Shown: piece after piece, positions 9,273 to 18,227 of the stretch
How positions within the stretch are numbered: position 1 is the stretch's first letter
How the letters are laid out: the number at the start of each line of letters is the position of its first letter
Source: Candidatus Velamenicoccus archaeovorus
GTDB lineage: Bacteria > Omnitrophota > Gorgyraeia > Velamenicoccales > Velamenicoccaceae
Direction: 5' to 3'
Assembly (NCBI RefSeq): GCF_004102945.1
Contig: NZ_CP019384.1
Location: 1,710,001 to 1,742,000, forward strand
DNA: 32,000 nt
Made by a program: the position numbers and the translations under genes
Notes under the pieces: generated by a model
Seen by the model: only the letters and a program-made list of their open reading frames with translations
What the model was told of the DNA's origin: nothing
The model's database searches: none

Positions 9273-9416
9273 GATGAGTGAAGCGCTTAGTGCGACTCTC
9301 TCGCACCCGCTCCTTTCTTGTATAGACAAGTTTACGGATTTTGCCAGGCCAAACAAGGGAAAAAACAGCTTTTCAAGAAAGCGTTTTCTTGTTTAGTCCG
9401 CCCTAAGGGCGGACTA

Positions 9417-9509
9417 AACAACCCCGAAGCTTACGCAGAAGATTTCGTGCCGGATGGCCGTCCTGGCCGGCTACGCCAGGCCGACGGCCTACCCTGGCAT
9501 GAAATCTTC
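9417..9509. repeat. Right terminal module: inverted 19-mer (9417-9435) + CA + GAAGATTT-ended hairpin (9438-9509)
   Basis: aacaaccccgaagcttacg is the reverse complement of the left 19-mer with one mismatch. The hairpin arms are gaagatttcgtgccgg / cctggcatgaaatcttc (one G:T pair, one bulge). They enclose an inner GC hairpin ggccgtcctggc...gccaggccgacggcc. Confidence 0.8.
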
Positions 9510-9544
9510 AAGTGCTTAAGCAAGGGGCTAAATCAAAAAACTGC

Positions 9545-14415: not shown

Positions 14416-14444
14416 TTGAATTCGAAAGGTATTTTTTGTATAAT
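14416..14444 (+). promoter_or_regulatory. Sigma70-like promoter (TTGAAT - 17 nt - TATAAT) facing the tRNA-Asp locus
   Basis: -35 TTGAAT at 14416-14421 and a consensus -10 TATAAT at 14439-14444, with a 17-nt spacer. The duplicated tRNA 5' segment starts ~20 nt downstream. Confidence 0.6.
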
Positions 14445-14463
14445 CTTCCCACTCTAAAGATTG

Positions 14464-14550
14464 CTTCGGGGACGTCGCTTTCCCGCCTGGCGCCCTTCGG
14501 GCTTGGCGGGATCCCGCCCAAGCGCAAGCGACGGCGGGAAGCCTGGTTTA
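14464..14550 (+). other. Stranded copy of the tRNA-Asp leader plus nt 1-24, split by a 59-nt twin-hairpin insert
   Basis: cttcGGGGACGTCGCTT (14464-14480) and AGCCTGGTTTA (14540-14550) are identical to 14832-14848 and 14849-14859 of the intact gene. The insert at 14481-14539 sits at the D-stem/D-loop junction. Confidence 0.85.
14481..14539. repeat. Twin-hairpin element E1 (TCCCGCC..GCGGGA | TCCCGCC..GGCGGGA, centre GGGATCCC)
   Basis: Two tandem hairpins use the same stem sequence. Same architecture and size as 15289-15349. Confidence 0.8.
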
Positions 14551-14590
14551 TTATTCTGGCTGTGATCCGAAAGAATAGTTCTTTTGTACT

Positions 14591-14860
14591 ATGCATTATG
14601 TGTATATAATCAGGAGCCAGAAGAACCATCAGTTTTATATAGGTTCAACTAAGGATGTTCGTGATCGCATCAAACAACACGAGCGAAGCGAGACAAAGTC
14701 GCTGAAAAATAAAGGTCCATTTGAGATAGTTCGTATCGAAGAGTTTGTTACAAAGACGGAAGCCCTAAAAAGAGAGAAGCAGATAAAACGCTATAAGGGC
14801 GGCCGCGCATTTAAGAAACTTATCGCAAAAACTTCGGGGACGTCGCTTAGCCTGGTTTAA
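14591..14860 (+). CDS. GIY-YIG nuclease family protein (small, UPF0213-like)
   Basis: 89-aa ORF: MHYVYIIRSQKNHQFYIGSTKDVRDRIKQH ... EEF ... ALKREKQIKRYKG (GIY, YIG, Arg and Glu blocks). AT-rich. The only convincing plus-strand CDS. Its last 9 codons and TAA stop lie inside tRNA-Asp. Confidence 0.85.
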   Translation: MHYVYIIRSQKNHQFYIGSTKDVRDRIKQHERSETKSLKNKGPFEIVRIEEFVTKTEALKREKQIKRYKGGRAFKKLIAKTSGTSLSLV

Positions 14861-14914
14861 GGCCCTTGATTGTCGATCAAGTGATCGTGGGTTCAAATCC
14901 CATCGTCCCCGCCA
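14836..14914 (+). tRNA. tRNA-Asp (anticodon GTC), CCA encoded
   Basis: Manual cloverleaf. Acceptor GGGGACG/CGTCCCC. D-stem GCTT/AGGC with an 11-nt loop. Anticodon stem CTTGA/TCAAG with loop TTGTCGA. 5-nt variable loop. T-arm GTGGG-TTCAAAT-CCCAT. Discriminator G, then CCA. Confidence 0.9.
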
Positions 14915-14920
14915 AAATAA

Positions 14921-14953
14921 AAGAGGCCGCACAATGTGCGGCCTCTTCTTTAT
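14921..14953 (+). terminator. Rho-independent terminator after tRNA-Asp (possibly bidirectional)
   Basis: AAGAGGCCGCA-caatg-TGCGGCCTCTT followed by CTTTAT, and preceded by AAAATAAA. Confidence 0.7.
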
Positions 14954-14962
14954 GTGCTTGGT

Positions 14963-15049
14963 CCCCTGCAAATTTCCCCCTCGCAAAAACACTCGTAAAT
15001 TCTGTCGCCCGCCTTCGGCGGCTCCACAATTTACTTCGTTTGCAAGGGG
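14963..15049. other. Long nested imperfect hairpin
   Basis: Outer arms CCCCTGCAAA / TTTGCA(A)GGGG. Inner arms GTAAATT / AATTTAC (14995-15001 / 15028-15034). Apical stem CCGCC-ttc-GGCGG. Confidence 0.5.
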
Positions 15050-15117
15050 TATTTTAGAAAGCGCAACCGCAACTATCCCTCGCTGCCGCTTCATTTCCCG
15101 ACAGCAGCTTGGGACTC

Positions 15118-15144: not shown

Positions 15145-15147
15145 TCG

Positions 15148-15221
15148 TGGGCGATGGAGGACTTGAACCCCCGACATTCTGCGTGTAAAGCAGACGCTCT
15201 AACCAGCTGAGCTAATCGCCC
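15148..15221 (-). tRNA. tRNA-Val (anticodon TAC), CCA not encoded
   Basis: Reverse complement: GGGCGAT TA GCTC AGCTGGTTA GAGC G TCTGC TTTACAC GCAGA ATGTC GGGGG TTCAAGT CCTCC ATCGCCC A. This is a canonical cloverleaf. Confidence 0.9.
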
Positions 15222-15288
15222 GAAAGCCTAACCTCCGCCGTAGGCGGATCAGCCCTGGCCTGCCCAAAGGGCAGCCGAGGCTGAAATT

Positions 15289-15349
15289 GTCCCGACGCTT
15301 GCCACCGGCAAGGTCGGGATCCCGACCGAACGCATGTGAGCGTCGGGAC
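15289..15349. repeat. Twin-hairpin element E2 (GTCCCGAC..GTCGGGA | TCCCGAC..GTCGGGAC, centre GGGATCCC)
   Basis: 61 nt. Two tandem hairpins with the same stem. The first loop itself holds the hairpin CTTGCC-acc-GGCAAG. Same layout as E1 at 14481-14539. Confidence 0.8.
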
Positions 15350-15479
15350 GCCAACCGCCCGAAATATAACCTCCACCACGAATGGATCAGGCTCCAGCTA
15401 AAACTGCCCGCCACAAAAATATCATTTAAGGCGGGTCCGCCTCTGGCGGAAACTAACCGCCCAATGCCTCTCTTCTCTG

Positions 15480-15938: not shown

Positions 15939-16005
15939 TGTTCCCTCCTTGATTTTGCCTATAGTGGGTAACTCTTCGTTACAAAATCAACCCCGAGCCT
16001 GCGCA

Positions 16006-16059
16006 GAAAATTTTTGCCGACTGGCCAGCTTCGCTGGCCGAGTCGTGGCAAAAATTTTC
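16006..16059. repeat. GAAAATTT-ended hairpin in the atpI-atpK spacer
   Basis: gaaaatttttgccgactggccagc-ttc-gctggccgagtcgtggcaaaaattttc: a long imperfect stem. Its termini resemble the hairpins at 8767-8805 and 9438-9509. Confidence 0.75.
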
Positions 16060-16086
16060 AAGCGTTTAGGCGAGTGGGTTAATCCT

Positions 16087-17885: not shown

Positions 17886-17946
17886 ACAATTTACGCGAAG
17901 CGAATAATATGAGTAAGCGTAAATTGTAGTCCCGCACCTGCGGGAC
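17886..17946. other. Two adjacent perfect hairpins upstream of atpI
   Basis: ACAATTTACGC (17886-17896) pairs with GCGTAAATTGT (17917-17927): 11 bp with a 20-nt loop. GTCCCGC-acct-GCGGGAC lies at 17929-17946. Confidence 0.7.
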
Positions 17947-17959
17947 GTCCGCGAATTAA

Positions 17960-18227
17960 ACCCAGCACGAATTTTATATTTTTAATGATTCTGCTATCCG
18001 CGCTTTTAAATATGTCCTTGCTTGACCGTATTGCTTTAGCTTTGTCTCTCTTCTCCTTGCGTCAACTTCCGAAAGAAAAGCCTCATAATAAACGAGCTTC
18101 GATGCCGCACGATCTTTATCGTGCTGCCGGATACGTCTTTGTAAATCGCTTGTATAACCGTAATAAAAACTCGCCGCTATCTTTATCTCTTAAAACATAC
18201 ACGTAGTACATAAAATTCGTGCTGGGT
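17960..18227 (-). mobile_element. 268-bp GIY-YIG mini-element bounded by a perfect 18-bp inverted repeat
   Basis: ACCCAGCACGAATTTTAT (17960-17977) is the exact reverse complement of ATAAAATTCGTGCTGGGT (18210-18227). The AT-rich interior is filled entirely by a GIY-YIG reading frame. Both the start codon and the stop codon overlap the repeat arms. Confidence 0.7.
17974..18211 (-). pseudogene. GIY-YIG nuclease gene with a +1 frameshift in a T5 run
   Basis: Frame 0 reads MYYVYVLRDKDSGE and then stops after 29 codons. The next frame continues FYYGYTSDLQRRIRQHDKDRAASKLVYYEAFLSEVDARRRETKLKQYGQARTYLKARIAESLKI*. Removing one T from GAGTTTTTATTAC (plus-strand A5 at 18165-18169) restores a 78-aa GIY-YIG protein. 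Confidence 0.75.

What the first reader, a model, noticed from the sequence alone, without database searches (positions are those of the whole stretch)
14481..14539. Twin-hairpin element family (59-61 nt) with a GGGATCC centre; two members, both at tRNA loci
Seen in the sequence: E1 (14481-14539) is TCCCGCC-18 nt-GCGGGA|TCCCGCC-14 nt-GGCGGGA. E2 (15289-15349) is GTCCCGAC-16 nt-GTCGGGA|TCCCGAC-15 nt-GTCGGGAC. Each is two tandem hairpins reusing one stem sequence. Each can therefore refold into a central palindrome (GGCGGGATCCCGCC / GGTCGGGATCCCGACC). One loop is similar between the members (caagcgcaagcgac vs cgaacgcatgtgagc). E1 interrupts the stranded tRNA-Asp fragment exactly at the D-stem/D-loop junction. 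E2 begins 3 nt after a decayed tRNA-Val 5' copy. Inference: this is a small non-autonomous insertion element, or a structured RNA module, that targets the 5' part of tRNA genes.
Basis: partly seen in the sequence, partly recalled or inferred. Interest (0 to 1): 0.65.

Follow-up and report, generated by a model that had tools for sequence, protein, structure and literature searches.

The report
Mobile double-hairpin DNA at broken tRNA copies
The two 59-base twin hairpins belong to a widespread, apparently undescribed family of GC-rich hairpin insertions that sit in broken spare copies of tRNA genes beside a tiny GIY-YIG nuclease gene in Omnitrophota, candidate-phyla-radiation bacteria and Bacteroidota.

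Summary
E1 (14481-14539) and E2 (true limits 15290-15348) are exact matches to TCCCGNC-loop-GNCGGGA|TCCCGNC-loop-GNCGGGA, with 0 matches expected by chance. A third, degenerate copy (E3, 15407-15450) and related mini hairpins lie in the same 1-kb tRNA cluster.

The pattern recurs in more than 100 genome loci, mostly Omnitrophota and Patescibacteria. Compensatory, Watson-Crick-only changes support the double hairpin.

The elements are not introns. They sit in truncated or duplicated tRNA copies, at D-arm, anticodon-arm or T-loop positions, next to an intact tRNA of the same kind. A close relative (L202) keeps the empty site for E2, which shows a precise 59-nt insertion with no target duplication.

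Hairpins with this stem are 21-fold enriched around small Slx1/UPF0213-type GIY-YIG genes. E1 lies upstream of such a gene, whose reading frame ends inside the intact tRNA-Asp. In Bacteroidota-like loci a mini version replaces whole tRNA arms.

Best reading: a mobile palindromic DNA module tied to a selfish GIY-YIG cassette that colonises tRNA genes. How it moves is inferred, not shown. I found no prior description. The closest analogues are mitochondrial double-hairpin elements and REPIN/RAYT.

The parts
14416..14444 (+). Sigma-70-like promoter (TTGAAT-17-TATAAT). It would drive transcription through the tRNA-Asp fragment, E1, the GIY-YIG ORF and the intact tRNA-Asp.
   Evidence: The homologous TATAAT region is present in L117, L202 and L203.
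14468..14480 (+). Displaced tRNA-Asp 5' fragment, nt 1-13 (GGGGACGTCGCTT).
   Evidence: Identical to 14836-14848 of the intact gene.
14481..14539 (.). E1, a 59-nt double-hairpin element of the GCC type, inserted at tRNA position 13|14.
   Evidence: Orthologs in L053, L117, L202, L203 and L204.
14540..14550 (+). Continuation of the displaced tRNA-Asp fragment (AGCCTGGTTTA, D loop), ending where the GIY cassette begins.
   Evidence: Identical to 14849-14859.
14591..14860 (+). GIY-YIG nuclease ORF of 89 aa (Slx1/UPF0213 type). Its last 8 codons and its TAA stop lie inside the intact tRNA-Asp.
   Evidence: PF01541, E 1.9e-17; catalytic Y5, Y16, G18, R26, H30, E62 invariant; PDB 1zg2, 1ywl, SLX1.
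14836..14914 (+). Intact tRNA-Asp(GTC), the working copy.
15147..15221 (-). Intact tRNA-Val(TAC), called allele B in this report.
   Evidence: Identical gene in L203.
15234..15248 (.). Mini hairpin TCCGCC-GTA-GGCGGA inside the scrambled remainder of the interrupted tRNA-Val copy.
15260..15274 (.). Mini hairpin CTGCCC-AAA-GGGCAG in the same scrambled tRNA-Val copy.
15285..15289 (-). nt 13-17 (CAATT) of the interrupted tRNA-Val copy (allele A'), immediately 3' of E2 in the tRNA's own orientation.
   Evidence: Empty site in L202: GGGCGGTTGGCG|CAATTGGTTAGCGC.
15290..15348 (.). E2, a 59-nt double-hairpin element of the GAC type, inserted at position 12|13 of a second tRNA-Val copy, with no target duplication.
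   Evidence: Covariation of its subfamily.
15349..15360 (-). nt 1-12 (GGGCGGTTGGCG) of the interrupted tRNA-Val copy (allele A').
   Evidence: The same copy is intact in L202.
15407..15450 (.). E3, a degenerate twin hairpin (CCCGCC-17 nt-GGCGGG | TCCGCC-TCT-GGCGGA), shared with L202.
15451..15462 (-). nt 1-12 (GGGCGGTTAGTT) of an older tRNA-Val copy (allele A, as in L117), abutting E3.
17929..18226 (-). Second GIY-YIG cassette, frame-shifted, between V-ATPase D and I. It has 15-bp inverted repeats (18212-18226 and 17961-17975) and a tail hairpin GTCCCGC-AGGT-GCGGGAC (17929-17946).
   Evidence: An intact homolog with the same tail lies between I and K in L203.

Best explanation
E1, E2 and the degenerate E3 are copies of a dispersed, mobile GC-rich palindromic DNA element. 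Each copy is two abutting hairpins that share the stem TCCCG[C/A]C / G[G/T]CGGGA.

The element belongs to the same selfish system as a minimal Slx1/UPF0213-type GIY-YIG nuclease cassette that colonises tRNA genes. The cassette inserts into a tRNA gene at a loop-coding position and carries its own copy of the tRNA 5' part. One working tRNA is therefore rebuilt, and the old part is pushed aside as a fragment or spare copy. The hairpin elements sit in those spare copies, at positions that encode the D, anticodon or T arms.

Shown by the data:
- family membership;
- a double-hairpin structure with compensatory changes;
- precise insertion without target duplication;
- location in non-functional tRNA copies next to an intact one;
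- tight physical linkage to GIY-YIG genes, including non-tRNA cassettes;
- stacked, repeated events.

Inferred:
- The conserved stem is the DNA feature that the domain-less, structure-specific-type nuclease recognises when it is extruded as a hairpin or cruciform.
- That nuclease makes the breaks at tRNA-gene loop positions, and these let both the cassette and solo hairpin copies enter.
- Insertions into the only working tRNA copy are removed by selection, so only those in redundant copies are seen.
For: Family and structure:
- The exact pattern gives 0 chance matches in the window.
- It occurs in at least 116 genome loci. About 100 of these are low-GC Omnitrophota, Patescibacteria or Margulisiibacteriota MAGs. 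The GC-rich actinomycete hits have unpaired N positions and act as a negative control.
- At the free stem position, 13 of 34 informative copies keep both twin-hairpin pairs, against 1 for the long-hairpin pairing.
- In 14 GAC-type copies including E2, 10 of 24 pairs show compensatory changes. There are 50 double-change cells against 13.3 +/- 3.1 in shuffles (0 of 500 as high), and only 1 G-U cell.

Not introns:
- Removing the element restores a tRNA in only 3 of 128 cases.
- 50 of 110 copies lie within 400 nt of an intact tRNA, and at least 38 abut tRNA fragments.

Mobility:
- L202 (GIY 99% identical) has the uninterrupted tRNA-Val copy GGGCGGTTGGCG|CAATTGG exactly where the window carries E2.
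- One Uhrbacteria MAG and one unclassified MAG each hold 7 to 10 near-identical 52-65-nt copies at unrelated sites.

GIY link:
- A GIY-YIG homolog starts 15-55 nt downstream of the element in 10 loci (9 genome loci plus the window). An eleventh, L107, carries only a degenerate copy upstream. Twelve sources gave GIY hits in all.
- In 80 loci chosen through the protein alone, 53 of 91 GIY genes have a same-strand tRNA within 150 nt and 53 of 91 have a CCCGNC hairpin within 400 nt.
- Hairpin density is 1.53/kb near GIY genes against 0.07/kb elsewhere in the same loci.
- Whole tRNA arms are replaced by (T)CCCGCC-N2-4-GGCGGG(A) in the copy next to GIY.
- Non-tRNA GIY cassettes carry a GTCCCGC hairpin in a tail that is far better conserved than the ORF.

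Other:
- Stacked units occur in L065, L117, L132 and at the window's tRNA-Val locus.
- The protein family is closest to bacterial Slx1-like 1zg2 and 1ywl, then to SLX1 (PMC1564403).
Against: - No test shows that the nuclease binds or cuts the hairpin. The link is positional only.
- About half of the strict-pattern copies have no tRNA or GIY gene within about 4 kb.
- For the non-tRNA copies the insertion point is not enriched in hairpin loops: 27% against 24% of random sites.
- The element stays intact next to the nuclease gene, which is unlike a classical homing site that insertion destroys.
- GIY-YIG enzymes are hydrolytic nucleases, not known transposases, so the joining step has no known enzyme.
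- UNCG- and GNRA-type loops in some copies, together with transcription from the tRNA promoter, leave an RNA-level role open.
- The strict search pattern fixed 24 of the 28 stem bases, so stem conservation across the strict set is partly by construction. The independent GIY-centred sample removes this bias for the CCCGCC core only.
Confidence: 0.55

Rival explanations
1. RNA-level cis element or decoy. The hairpins act in the transcript. One version is a stable 5' or 3' structure that protects the GIY mRNA, or that stops RNase P/Z from processing the tRNA remnant. The other version is a tRNA look-alike whose cleavable loop has been swapped for an uncleavable hairpin. That look-alike would titrate a tRNA-directed nuclease in a toxin-antitoxin-like arrangement.
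For: - E1 lies between a tRNA promoter and the GIY start codon.
- The GIY ORF ends inside the tRNA, so tRNA processing and translation compete.
- Arm-for-hairpin swaps keep the cloverleaf length, and such copies still score as tRNA (42-57 bits).
- The inner tetraloop of E1 hairpin 1 varies only as UUCG, UACG or UCCG among orthologs.
- One prokaryotic Slx1-like protein is fused to a tRNA Gm18 methyltransferase (PMC1564403).
Against: - Covariation is Watson-Crick only: 1 G-U cell among 327 counted cells.
- The element occurs in both orientations relative to the tRNA (E2 and L095 against L103 and L038).
- The whole element has dyad symmetry, as expected for DNA.
- Many copies in Patescibacteria are far from any tRNA or GIY gene.
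- No Rfam family matches.
- No GIY-YIG enzyme is known to cut RNA (general knowledge).
Confidence: 0.2
2. An independent miniature transposable element moved by an unlinked enzyme, for example an HUH/RAYT-like or IS110-like protein encoded elsewhere. Its proximity to GIY-YIG genes would arise only because both prefer tRNA loci.
For: - Solo copies lie without GIY within about 4 kb in most loci.
- Single genomes carry multi-copy, near-identical families.
- There are terminal inverted repeats and no target duplication, as for single-strand transposition.
Against: - The same stem also accompanies GIY cassettes that are not at tRNAs, in the window's D-I spacer and the L203 I-K spacer.
- The 21-fold enrichment is centred on GIY genes, not on tRNAs in general.
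- No transposase gene was noticed next to copies, although this was not searched systematically.
Confidence: 0.15
3. A bacterial tRNA intron. The element would be transcribed within a tRNA and spliced out, like archaeal introns at non-canonical positions.
For: Insertions fall in the D, anticodon and T loops without target duplication, and the exon ends rejoin exactly to tRNA sequence.
Against: - In-silico removal gives a full tRNA in only 3 of 128 cases.
- E1's host is a 24-nt fragment.
- Every full-length interrupted copy seen (L060, L129, L136) has an intact twin alongside.
- The boundaries lie at the base of perfect stems, not in a bulge-helix-bulge motif.
Confidence: 0.03
4. Ordinary GC-rich palindromes, such as terminators or chance inverted repeats, with no family identity.
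For: Short GC hairpins are common. GC-rich actinomycete genomes match the pattern by chance.
Against: - No chance matches are expected in the window.
- No T tract follows E1 or E2, and the terminator scan does not call them.
- There are compensatory changes.
- There is an empty-site polymorphism.
- Hairpins are 21-fold enriched at GIY genes.
Confidence: 0.02

Closest known systems
Mitochondrial double-hairpin elements (DHEs) of Allomyces and Schizosaccharomyces (Paquin et al. 2000; summarised in PMC10085805)
   Same: Both are short, G+C-rich units that fold into two adjacent stem-loops. Both are dispersed and thought to be mobile, with striking cross-species sequence conservation. From my own recollection, not checked here, some Allomyces copies lie at the borders of an inserted endonuclease ORF that carries a duplicated gene end.
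   Different: DHEs are found in fungal mitochondria, their sequence is unrelated, and they lie in intergenic regions, introns and rRNA variable regions rather than in tRNA copies. No defined nuclease partner is known for them.
REP / BIME / REPIN elements with RAYT transposases (general knowledge)
   Same: The basic unit is a short palindrome and the functional form is an inverted doublet. Here loop 1 resembles the reverse complement of loop 2. Both are non-autonomous, multi-copy, and presumably served in trans by a small nuclease gene.
   Different: RAYTs are HUH/Y1 enzymes and REPs carry a conserved 5' GTAG. Here the only linked gene is a GIY-YIG nuclease, copy numbers are low (a handful to about 10 per MAG sampled), and the preferred sites are tRNA-derived.
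Free-standing GIY-YIG homing endonuclease cassettes (phage T4 Seg proteins, including SegB in the tRNA cluster; fungal mitochondrial ORFs that duplicate a host gene end)
   Same: Both are small nuclease ORFs inserted in or next to an essential gene. Both carry a replacement copy of the disrupted part, leave a displaced remnant, and vary in presence among close relatives.
   Different: Classical GIY-YIG homing enzymes have a DNA-binding domain and belong to the UvrC/I-TevI lineage. This protein is the bare Slx1-like catalytic domain (PMC1564403), a group so far regarded as vertically inherited. It also comes with a conserved hairpin module.
Archaeal bulge-helix-bulge tRNA introns at non-canonical positions
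   Same: Both are short inserts in the D, anticodon and T loops, sometimes two per gene (L050).
   Different: Here there is no bulge-helix-bulge motif, the hosts are pseudo-copies, and an intact tRNA gene lies alongside.
Classical MITEs (Correia, RPE, Nezha)
   Same: Both have terminal inverted repeats, are small, carry no coding capacity and are multi-copy.
   Different: This element makes no target-site duplication, has an internal second pair of the same repeats, and no autonomous partner with the same ends was found.

Membership tests
tRNA intron (archaeal BHB type or group I) | Removing the insert restores a complete tRNA gene, and that gene is the functional copy. | tested here: not met
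   Only 3 of 128 in-silico removals give a tRNA. E1's host is a 24-nt fragment. Full-length interrupted copies have an intact twin next door.
tRNA intron (archaeal BHB type or group I) | A bulge-helix-bulge motif at the exon-intron junctions, or a group I catalytic core. | tested here: not met
   The junctions lie at the blunt base of 7-bp stems. The element is 48-84 nt long and has no Rfam intron match.
Intrinsic terminator | A GC-rich hairpin followed by a run of T. | tested here: not met
   The scan calls 14921-14947 and 15096-15114 but not E1, E2 or E3. E1 is followed by AGCCTGG.
MITE | Terminal inverted repeats. | tested here: met
   TCCCGNC ... GNCGGGA at both ends.
MITE | Target-site duplication flanking the insert. 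| tested here: not met
   Comparing the L202 empty site with the window's filled site shows an exact 59-nt gain with no duplicated bases. The tRNA flanks rejoin exactly.
MITE | An autonomous parent element with the same ends that encodes a transposase. | tested here: inconclusive
   No GIY cassette bounded by the two halves of the element was seen. GIY genes are flanked by direct repeats of hairpin-bearing tRNA copies instead.
REP/REPIN-RAYT | An inverted doublet of a short palindromic unit. | tested here: met
   Loop 1 aligns better to the reverse complement of loop 2 (score -2.5) than to loop 2 (-4.95) or to unrelated loops (-5.2). Outer and central stems extend beyond control values.
REP/REPIN-RAYT | A cognate HUH (Y1) RAYT gene in the genome, and a 5' GTAG in the unit. 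| not tested
   There is no GTAG in the unit. RAYT genes were not searched for, because only 8-kb loci were available.
Mitochondrial double-hairpin elements | A G+C-rich unit of roughly 26-80 nt that folds into two adjacent stem-loops, dispersed in the genome. | tested here: met
   structure; dispersal. The resemblance is one of architecture only; there is no sequence relation and the genetic compartment differs.
Free-standing GIY-YIG homing endonuclease cassette (for the linked ORF) | A GIY-YIG catalytic domain with conserved catalytic residues. | tested here: met
   PF01541 at E 1.9e-17. Y5, Y16, G18, R26, H30 and E62 are invariant in 48 homologs.
Free-standing GIY-YIG homing endonuclease cassette (for the linked ORF) | A separate DNA-binding domain that gives a long recognition site. 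| tested here: not met
   The protein is 80-90 aa and consists of the catalytic domain only. Its best solved relatives are the minimal bacterial Slx1-like proteins 1zg2 and 1ywl.
Free-standing GIY-YIG homing endonuclease cassette (for the linked ORF) | Presence or absence varies among close relatives, and the enzyme cleaves the empty allele. | tested here: inconclusive
   Cassettes sit at different sites in relatives (D-I in the window, I-K in L203) and form tandem arrays. Cleavage cannot be tested with these tools.

The most novel reading that the evidence does not exclude
The minimal Slx1-like GIY-YIG protein and its cognate (T)CCCG[C/A]C hairpin form a new kind of mobile system that works on DNA structure rather than sequence. 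The nuclease would cut tRNA genes where the single-stranded gene folds into cloverleaf arms. A hairpin, or the whole cassette, would then be pasted in. This can swap an entire D, anticodon or T arm for the element's own hairpin, a 'hairpin-swap' form of transposition that steadily disables redundant tRNA copies.

An equally unconventional variant is that the protein is a tRNA-directed nuclease and the hairpin-substituted tRNA copies are uncleavable RNA decoys, giving a toxin-antitoxin-like addiction module.
Probability: 0.2. Interest if true: 0.9.

Novelty: new variant of a known kind. Interest (0 to 1): 0.72.

Why it matters
- It would give a function and a selfish life-style to the bacterial Slx1/UPF0213 (COG2827) proteins. 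These are a very widespread, structurally solved but uncharacterised family that has been regarded as a vertically inherited repair factor (PMC1564403).
- It explains a class of odd tRNA calls. Copies with a GC hairpin in place of an arm still pass ARAGORN and Rfam thresholds. They are therefore probably annotated as ordinary tRNAs in many Bacteroidota, Omnitrophota and Patescibacteria genomes.
- It is a bacterial counterpart of the long-unexplained mitochondrial double-hairpin elements. Here there is a candidate enzyme and defined 59-nt substrates, so the question of how such elements move can be tested at the bench.
- tRNA loci in these small genomes emerge as fast-evolving hot spots. Near-identical strains differ by several hairpin insertions, a tRNA allele replacement and an inversion.

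Tried and rejected
- Intron reading. Removing each element with shifts of +/-2 nt and re-running ARAGORN restored a tRNA in only 3 of 128 cases, so this was rejected.
- Known RNA family. Rfam at gathering and at permissive thresholds, on the window and on 10 loci, found only tRNA.
- Phage origin. The exact pattern has 0 matches in IMG/VR.
- Long single hairpin as the conserved fold. Outer and central stems do extend above control, and 4-5 of the 19 GAC-type copies, including E2, fold that way. However, the free stem position (13 against 1) and the inner-stem covariation favour two hairpins. I keep both as accessible conformers.
- General targeting of hairpin loops. The junction lies in a hairpin loop for 51% of tRNA-associated copies. 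For non-tRNA copies it is 27%, against 24% for random sites, so this is not supported as a general rule.
- Target-site duplication. Two Patescibacteria copies show 7-8-nt direct repeats (L058, L051). The flanks there are made of iterated short motifs, and the tRNA-borne copies and the E2 empty site show none. I treat these repeats as chance.
- Intergenic or terminator-like placement of the non-tRNA copies. The ORF context was mixed and uninformative.
- Exact-protein look-up of the window's V-ATPase K subunit, to find the same contig. Nothing was on record.
- Literature searches for tRNA introns or GIY-YIG with tRNA in Patescibacteria or Omnitrophota, and for UPF0213, COG2827 or YhbQ. None described this arrangement.
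Full report
**Observation**

- E1 (14481-14539) and E2 (15290-15348) are the only matches in the window to TCCCGNC-N8-30-GNCGGGATCCCGNC-N8-30-GNCGGGA. None occur in 100 dinucleotide-preserving shuffles.
- E1 folds as two abutting hairpins (-37.9 kcal/mol, z -3.2).
- ARAGORN and Rfam find two intact tRNAs: tRNA-Asp at 14836-14914 (+) and tRNA-Val at 15147-15221 (-).
- E1 splits a perfect copy of tRNA-Asp nt 1-24 exactly at 13|14. Nt 1-13 lie at 14468-14480 and nt 14-24 at 14540-14550.

**What lies around E1**

- An 89-codon ORF (14591-14860) lies between the interrupted fragment and the intact tRNA-Asp. It is a GIY-YIG nuclease domain and nothing else (Pfam PF01541, E 1.9e-17).
- Its last eight codons and its TAA stop are encoded by the 5' part of the intact tRNA-Asp.
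- A good sigma-70-type promoter (TTGAAT-17-TATAAT, 14416-14444) sits just upstream of the interrupted fragment.
- The transcription unit therefore reads: promoter, tRNA(1-13), E1, tRNA(14-24), GIY ORF, intact tRNA.
- In 48 homologs the catalytic residues Y5, Y16, G18, R26, H30 and E62 are invariant.
- The closest solved structures are the minimal bacterial Slx1-like proteins 1zg2 and 1ywl, then eukaryotic SLX1, and only weakly I-TevI.
- Dunin-Horkawicz et al. (PMC1564403) describe this group as the minimal stand-alone GIY-YIG domain. They place it in the Slx1 lineage, outside the lineage that gave rise to known selfish GIY-YIG enzymes.

**A large family**

- By record title, about 60 loci are Candidatus Omnitrophota. 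Others are Patescibacteria (Uhr-, Kerfeld-, Gottesman-, Nomura- and Saccharibacteria), Saganbacteria, Margulisiibacteriota, WOR-1, a few MAGs labelled Planctomycetia or Gammaproteobacteria, and two Bacteroidota.
- Eighteen hits lie in DNA of 63-78% local G+C, mostly actinomycetes. Their four free stem positions are unpaired at random, so they serve as a built-in negative control.
- L053 (Omnitrophota SO_2017_LW4_130) carries an almost identical E1 locus, which places the window in Omnitrophota.
- The pattern is absent from 2.9 million viral contigs. Nothing in Rfam matches it.

**Structure**

- Among 103 distinct low-GC copies, 34 differ between the two halves at the free stem position. Thirteen keep both within-half pairs Watson-Crick (C-G with A-T, T-A with C-G, and so on), against one for the across-half pairing.
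- In the GAC subfamily to which E2 belongs, each half is a 7-bp stem, a one-base bulge and a variable inner stem.
- RNAalifold on 14 of these copies returns the double hairpin, with 10 of 24 pairs showing compensatory changes.
- On that structure 95.1% of cells pair, against 81.2% in shuffles. There are 50 double-change cells against 13.3 +/- 3.1, and the covariation score is 0.344 against 0.087 (0 of 500 shuffles as high). Slid controls collapse.
- Only one of 327 cells is a G-U pair.
- The element as a whole has dyad symmetry. Loop 1 resembles the reverse complement of loop 2, and the outer and central stems extend beyond 7 bp more often than controls.
- Four or five of the 19 GAC-type copies, E2 among them, fold as one long hairpin.
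- The element occurs in both orientations relative to the adjacent tRNA (E2 and L095 against L103 and L038).
- Watson-Crick-only covariation, dyad symmetry and free orientation together point to a constraint on DNA hairpins, or on both strands, rather than on one RNA.

**Not introns**

- The flanks of many copies are tRNA halves: GGTTC|element|AAATCC in the T loop, TCGTCT|element|AGCCTGG in the D loop, and CTTTT|element|CAAGC in the anticodon loop.
- Removing the element, allowing +/-2-nt shifts, restored a tRNA that spans the junction in only 3 of 128 cases.
- Instead, 50 of 110 low-GC copies lie within 400 nt of an intact tRNA (34 within 100 nt), usually of the same isoacceptor. At least 38 directly abut fragments of such a tRNA.
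- The junctions map to positions 10|11, 12|13 and 13|14 (D arm), 30|31 and 35|36 (anticodon arm), and 56|57 (T loop).
- L050 carries two elements in one tRNA-Glu fragment.

**Link to the nuclease gene**

- tblastn with the window's protein finds a homolog that starts 15-55 nt downstream of the element in L025, L050, L056, L065, L088, L092, L095, L103 and L110, as in the window. L107 has the same layout but with a degenerate copy upstream.
- The layout is always tRNA(1..p), element, tRNA(p+1..k), GIY ORF running into an intact tRNA. The cassette boundary k also falls in a loop: the D, variable or T loop.
- To remove the bias of starting from the hairpin, I collected 80 metagenomic loci through the protein alone.
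  - Of 91 GIY genes, 53 have a same-strand tRNA within 150 nt, and 53 have a CCCGNC...GNCGGG hairpin within 400 nt.
  - Hairpin density is 1.53/kb within 150 nt of the genes, against 0.07/kb in the rest of the same loci.
- The common form in those loci is a mini hairpin, (T)CCCGCC-N2-4-GGCGGG(A). It replaces a whole D, anticodon or T arm in a second tRNA copy next to the gene, and the rest of that copy is often identical to the intact neighbour (L125, L128, L129, L136, L138, L142).
- Such substituted copies still score as tRNA (42-57 bits).
- Twin, long-loop forms like E1 occur in L122, L126, L166 and L170.
- Tandem arrays of tRNA copy plus GIY are frequent (L065, L132, L167).

**Comparison with close relatives shows movement**

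- L202 (GIY 99% identical), L203 (GCA_028717105.1), L117 (78%) and L204 all carry E1 at the same place.
- E1 is 88-92% identical in lineages where the ORF is only 73-75% identical at the nucleotide level. Its inner tetraloop varies only as TTCG, TACG or TCCG.
- At the tRNA-Val locus three states exist.
  - L117 has V-ATPase K followed directly by tRNA-Val allele A.
  - L203 has K followed directly by allele B.
  - The window has K, Val-A(1-12), E3, 45 nt, Val-A'(1-12), E2, 67 nt containing two mini hairpins, and then intact allele B.
- L202 shares E3 but has Val-A' intact. It reads GGGCGGTTGGCG|CAATTGGTTAGCGC exactly where the window has E2. E2 is therefore a precise 59-nt insertion at 12|13 with no target duplication, into a redundant tRNA copy that is further scrambled in the window.
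- One Uhrbacteria MAG (JAZDHJ01) and MAG DeMMO3_36 (JAGVPA01) each hold 7-10 near-identical 52-65-nt copies at unrelated sites, mostly away from tRNAs and flanked by short iterated motifs.

**The hairpin also travels with GIY cassettes that are not at tRNAs**

- The window has a second, frame-shifted GIY gene between V-ATPase D and I (17929-18226, minus strand).
- It is bracketed by a perfect 15-bp inverted repeat and followed by GTCCCGC-AGGT-GCGGGAC.
- L203 has an intact homolog between I and K.
- The two ORFs are roughly 55% identical, and the inverted repeats differ while staying complementary. The 100-nt tail with the hairpin is about 93% identical.

**Interpretation**

- The data show a mobile, structure-constrained palindromic DNA module.
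- It is physically tied to a minimal Slx1-type GIY-YIG cassette.
- It accumulates in the tRNA copies that those cassettes displace or duplicate.
- I infer that the conserved stem, extruded as a hairpin, is what the domain-less nuclease recognises.
- I also infer that the same nuclease makes the breaks at loop-coding positions of tRNA genes, and that insertions into the working copy are lost by selection.

**Weak points**

- There is no biochemical evidence.
- About half of the strict-pattern copies have neither a tRNA nor a GIY gene nearby.
- Non-tRNA insertion sites are not enriched in hairpin loops.
- No joining activity is known for GIY-YIG enzymes.
- An RNA-level role is not excluded. The options are a 5'-UTR structure, a block to tRNA processing, or an uncleavable tRNA decoy for a tRNA-directed nuclease. 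This is the main rival.
- An unlinked transposase is the second rival.

**Comparison with known systems**

- In architecture and behaviour the element is closest to mitochondrial double-hairpin elements (PMC10085805) and to REPIN/RAYT doublets.
- The cassette resembles free-standing GIY-YIG homing genes that carry a replacement gene end.
- The element fails the defining tests for a tRNA intron, an intrinsic terminator and a classical MITE (no target duplication).
- Eight full-text searches found no description of this arrangement in bacteria.
- I rate it a new variant of a known kind: selfish palindromic repeats plus a homing-type nuclease. There remains a real chance that the mechanism is new.

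Noticed in passing
window 17929-18226 (- strand): A second, frame-shifted GIY-YIG gene lies between V-ATPase subunits D and I. It is bracketed by a perfect 15-bp inverted repeat (CCCAGCACGAATTTT) and followed by the hairpin GTCCCGC-AGGT-GCGGGAC. L203 has an intact homolog between subunits I and K, with a different but still complementary inverted repeat and a tail that is about 93% identical.
   Followed up: partly
window 14416-14950 compared with L117, L202 and L203: The block from the promoter -10 element through E1, GIY and tRNA-Asp to the terminator is inverted in the window relative to three relatives. One breakpoint lies in the promoter spacer next to the repeat CCCTTGCAAA / TTTGCAGGGG (about 14955-15045).
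   Followed up: partly
window 14836-14860: The GIY ORF has no stop codon of its own and ends at a TAA in the D loop of the intact tRNA-Asp. RNase P cleavage at tRNA +1 would therefore remove the stop codon from the mRNA. Homologs end in the TAG at tRNA positions 8-10 (L136).
   Followed up: no
window 9432-9510 and 16005-16063; also 9390-9421: A different family of long palindromes, with outer AT-rich arms (GCAGAA.ATTT ... AAAT.TTCAAG) enclosing GC-rich inner hairpins, lies in two intergenic spacers. A 14-bp perfect hairpin around TCCGCC-CTAAG-GGCGGA lies at 9390-9421.
   Followed up: no
window 15147-15221 compared with L117 2188-2261 and L202 580-656: Three clearly different tRNA-Val(TAC) sequences (A, A', B) occupy the same locus in close relatives. 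L202 keeps A' intact and only the 3' end of B, while the window keeps B intact and a wrecked A'. This points to rapid turnover or replacement of tRNA alleles.
   Followed up: partly
L008, L033, L043, L051, L054, L058, L078, L079, L109 (Patescibacteria copies): Copies that are not at tRNAs are flanked by arrays of short iterated motifs that differ from copy to copy (AATCC, GACATT, ACGAAT, AATTC). Two of them (L058, L051) have 7-8-nt direct repeats at the borders.
   Followed up: partly
L129 826-901, L136 1737-1812, L132, L168: tRNA-Pro copies whose D arm is replaced by CCCGCC-NNN-GGCGGG still pass the ARAGORN and Rfam tRNA thresholds (42-57 bits). They are therefore likely to be annotated as ordinary tRNAs in public genomes.
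   Followed up: partly
E1 orthologs in window, L202, L203, L117, L204: The inner loop of hairpin 1 varies only at the second base of a C(UNCG)G-type tetraloop (TTCG, TACG, TCCG), while the neighbouring positions stay fixed.
   Followed up: no
window 15009-15021 and 15096-15114: Two further decayed hairpins of the same flavour (CCGCC-TTC-GGCGG and TCCCGAC-AGCAG-CTTGGGA) lie in the spacer between the two convergent tRNAs.
   Followed up: no
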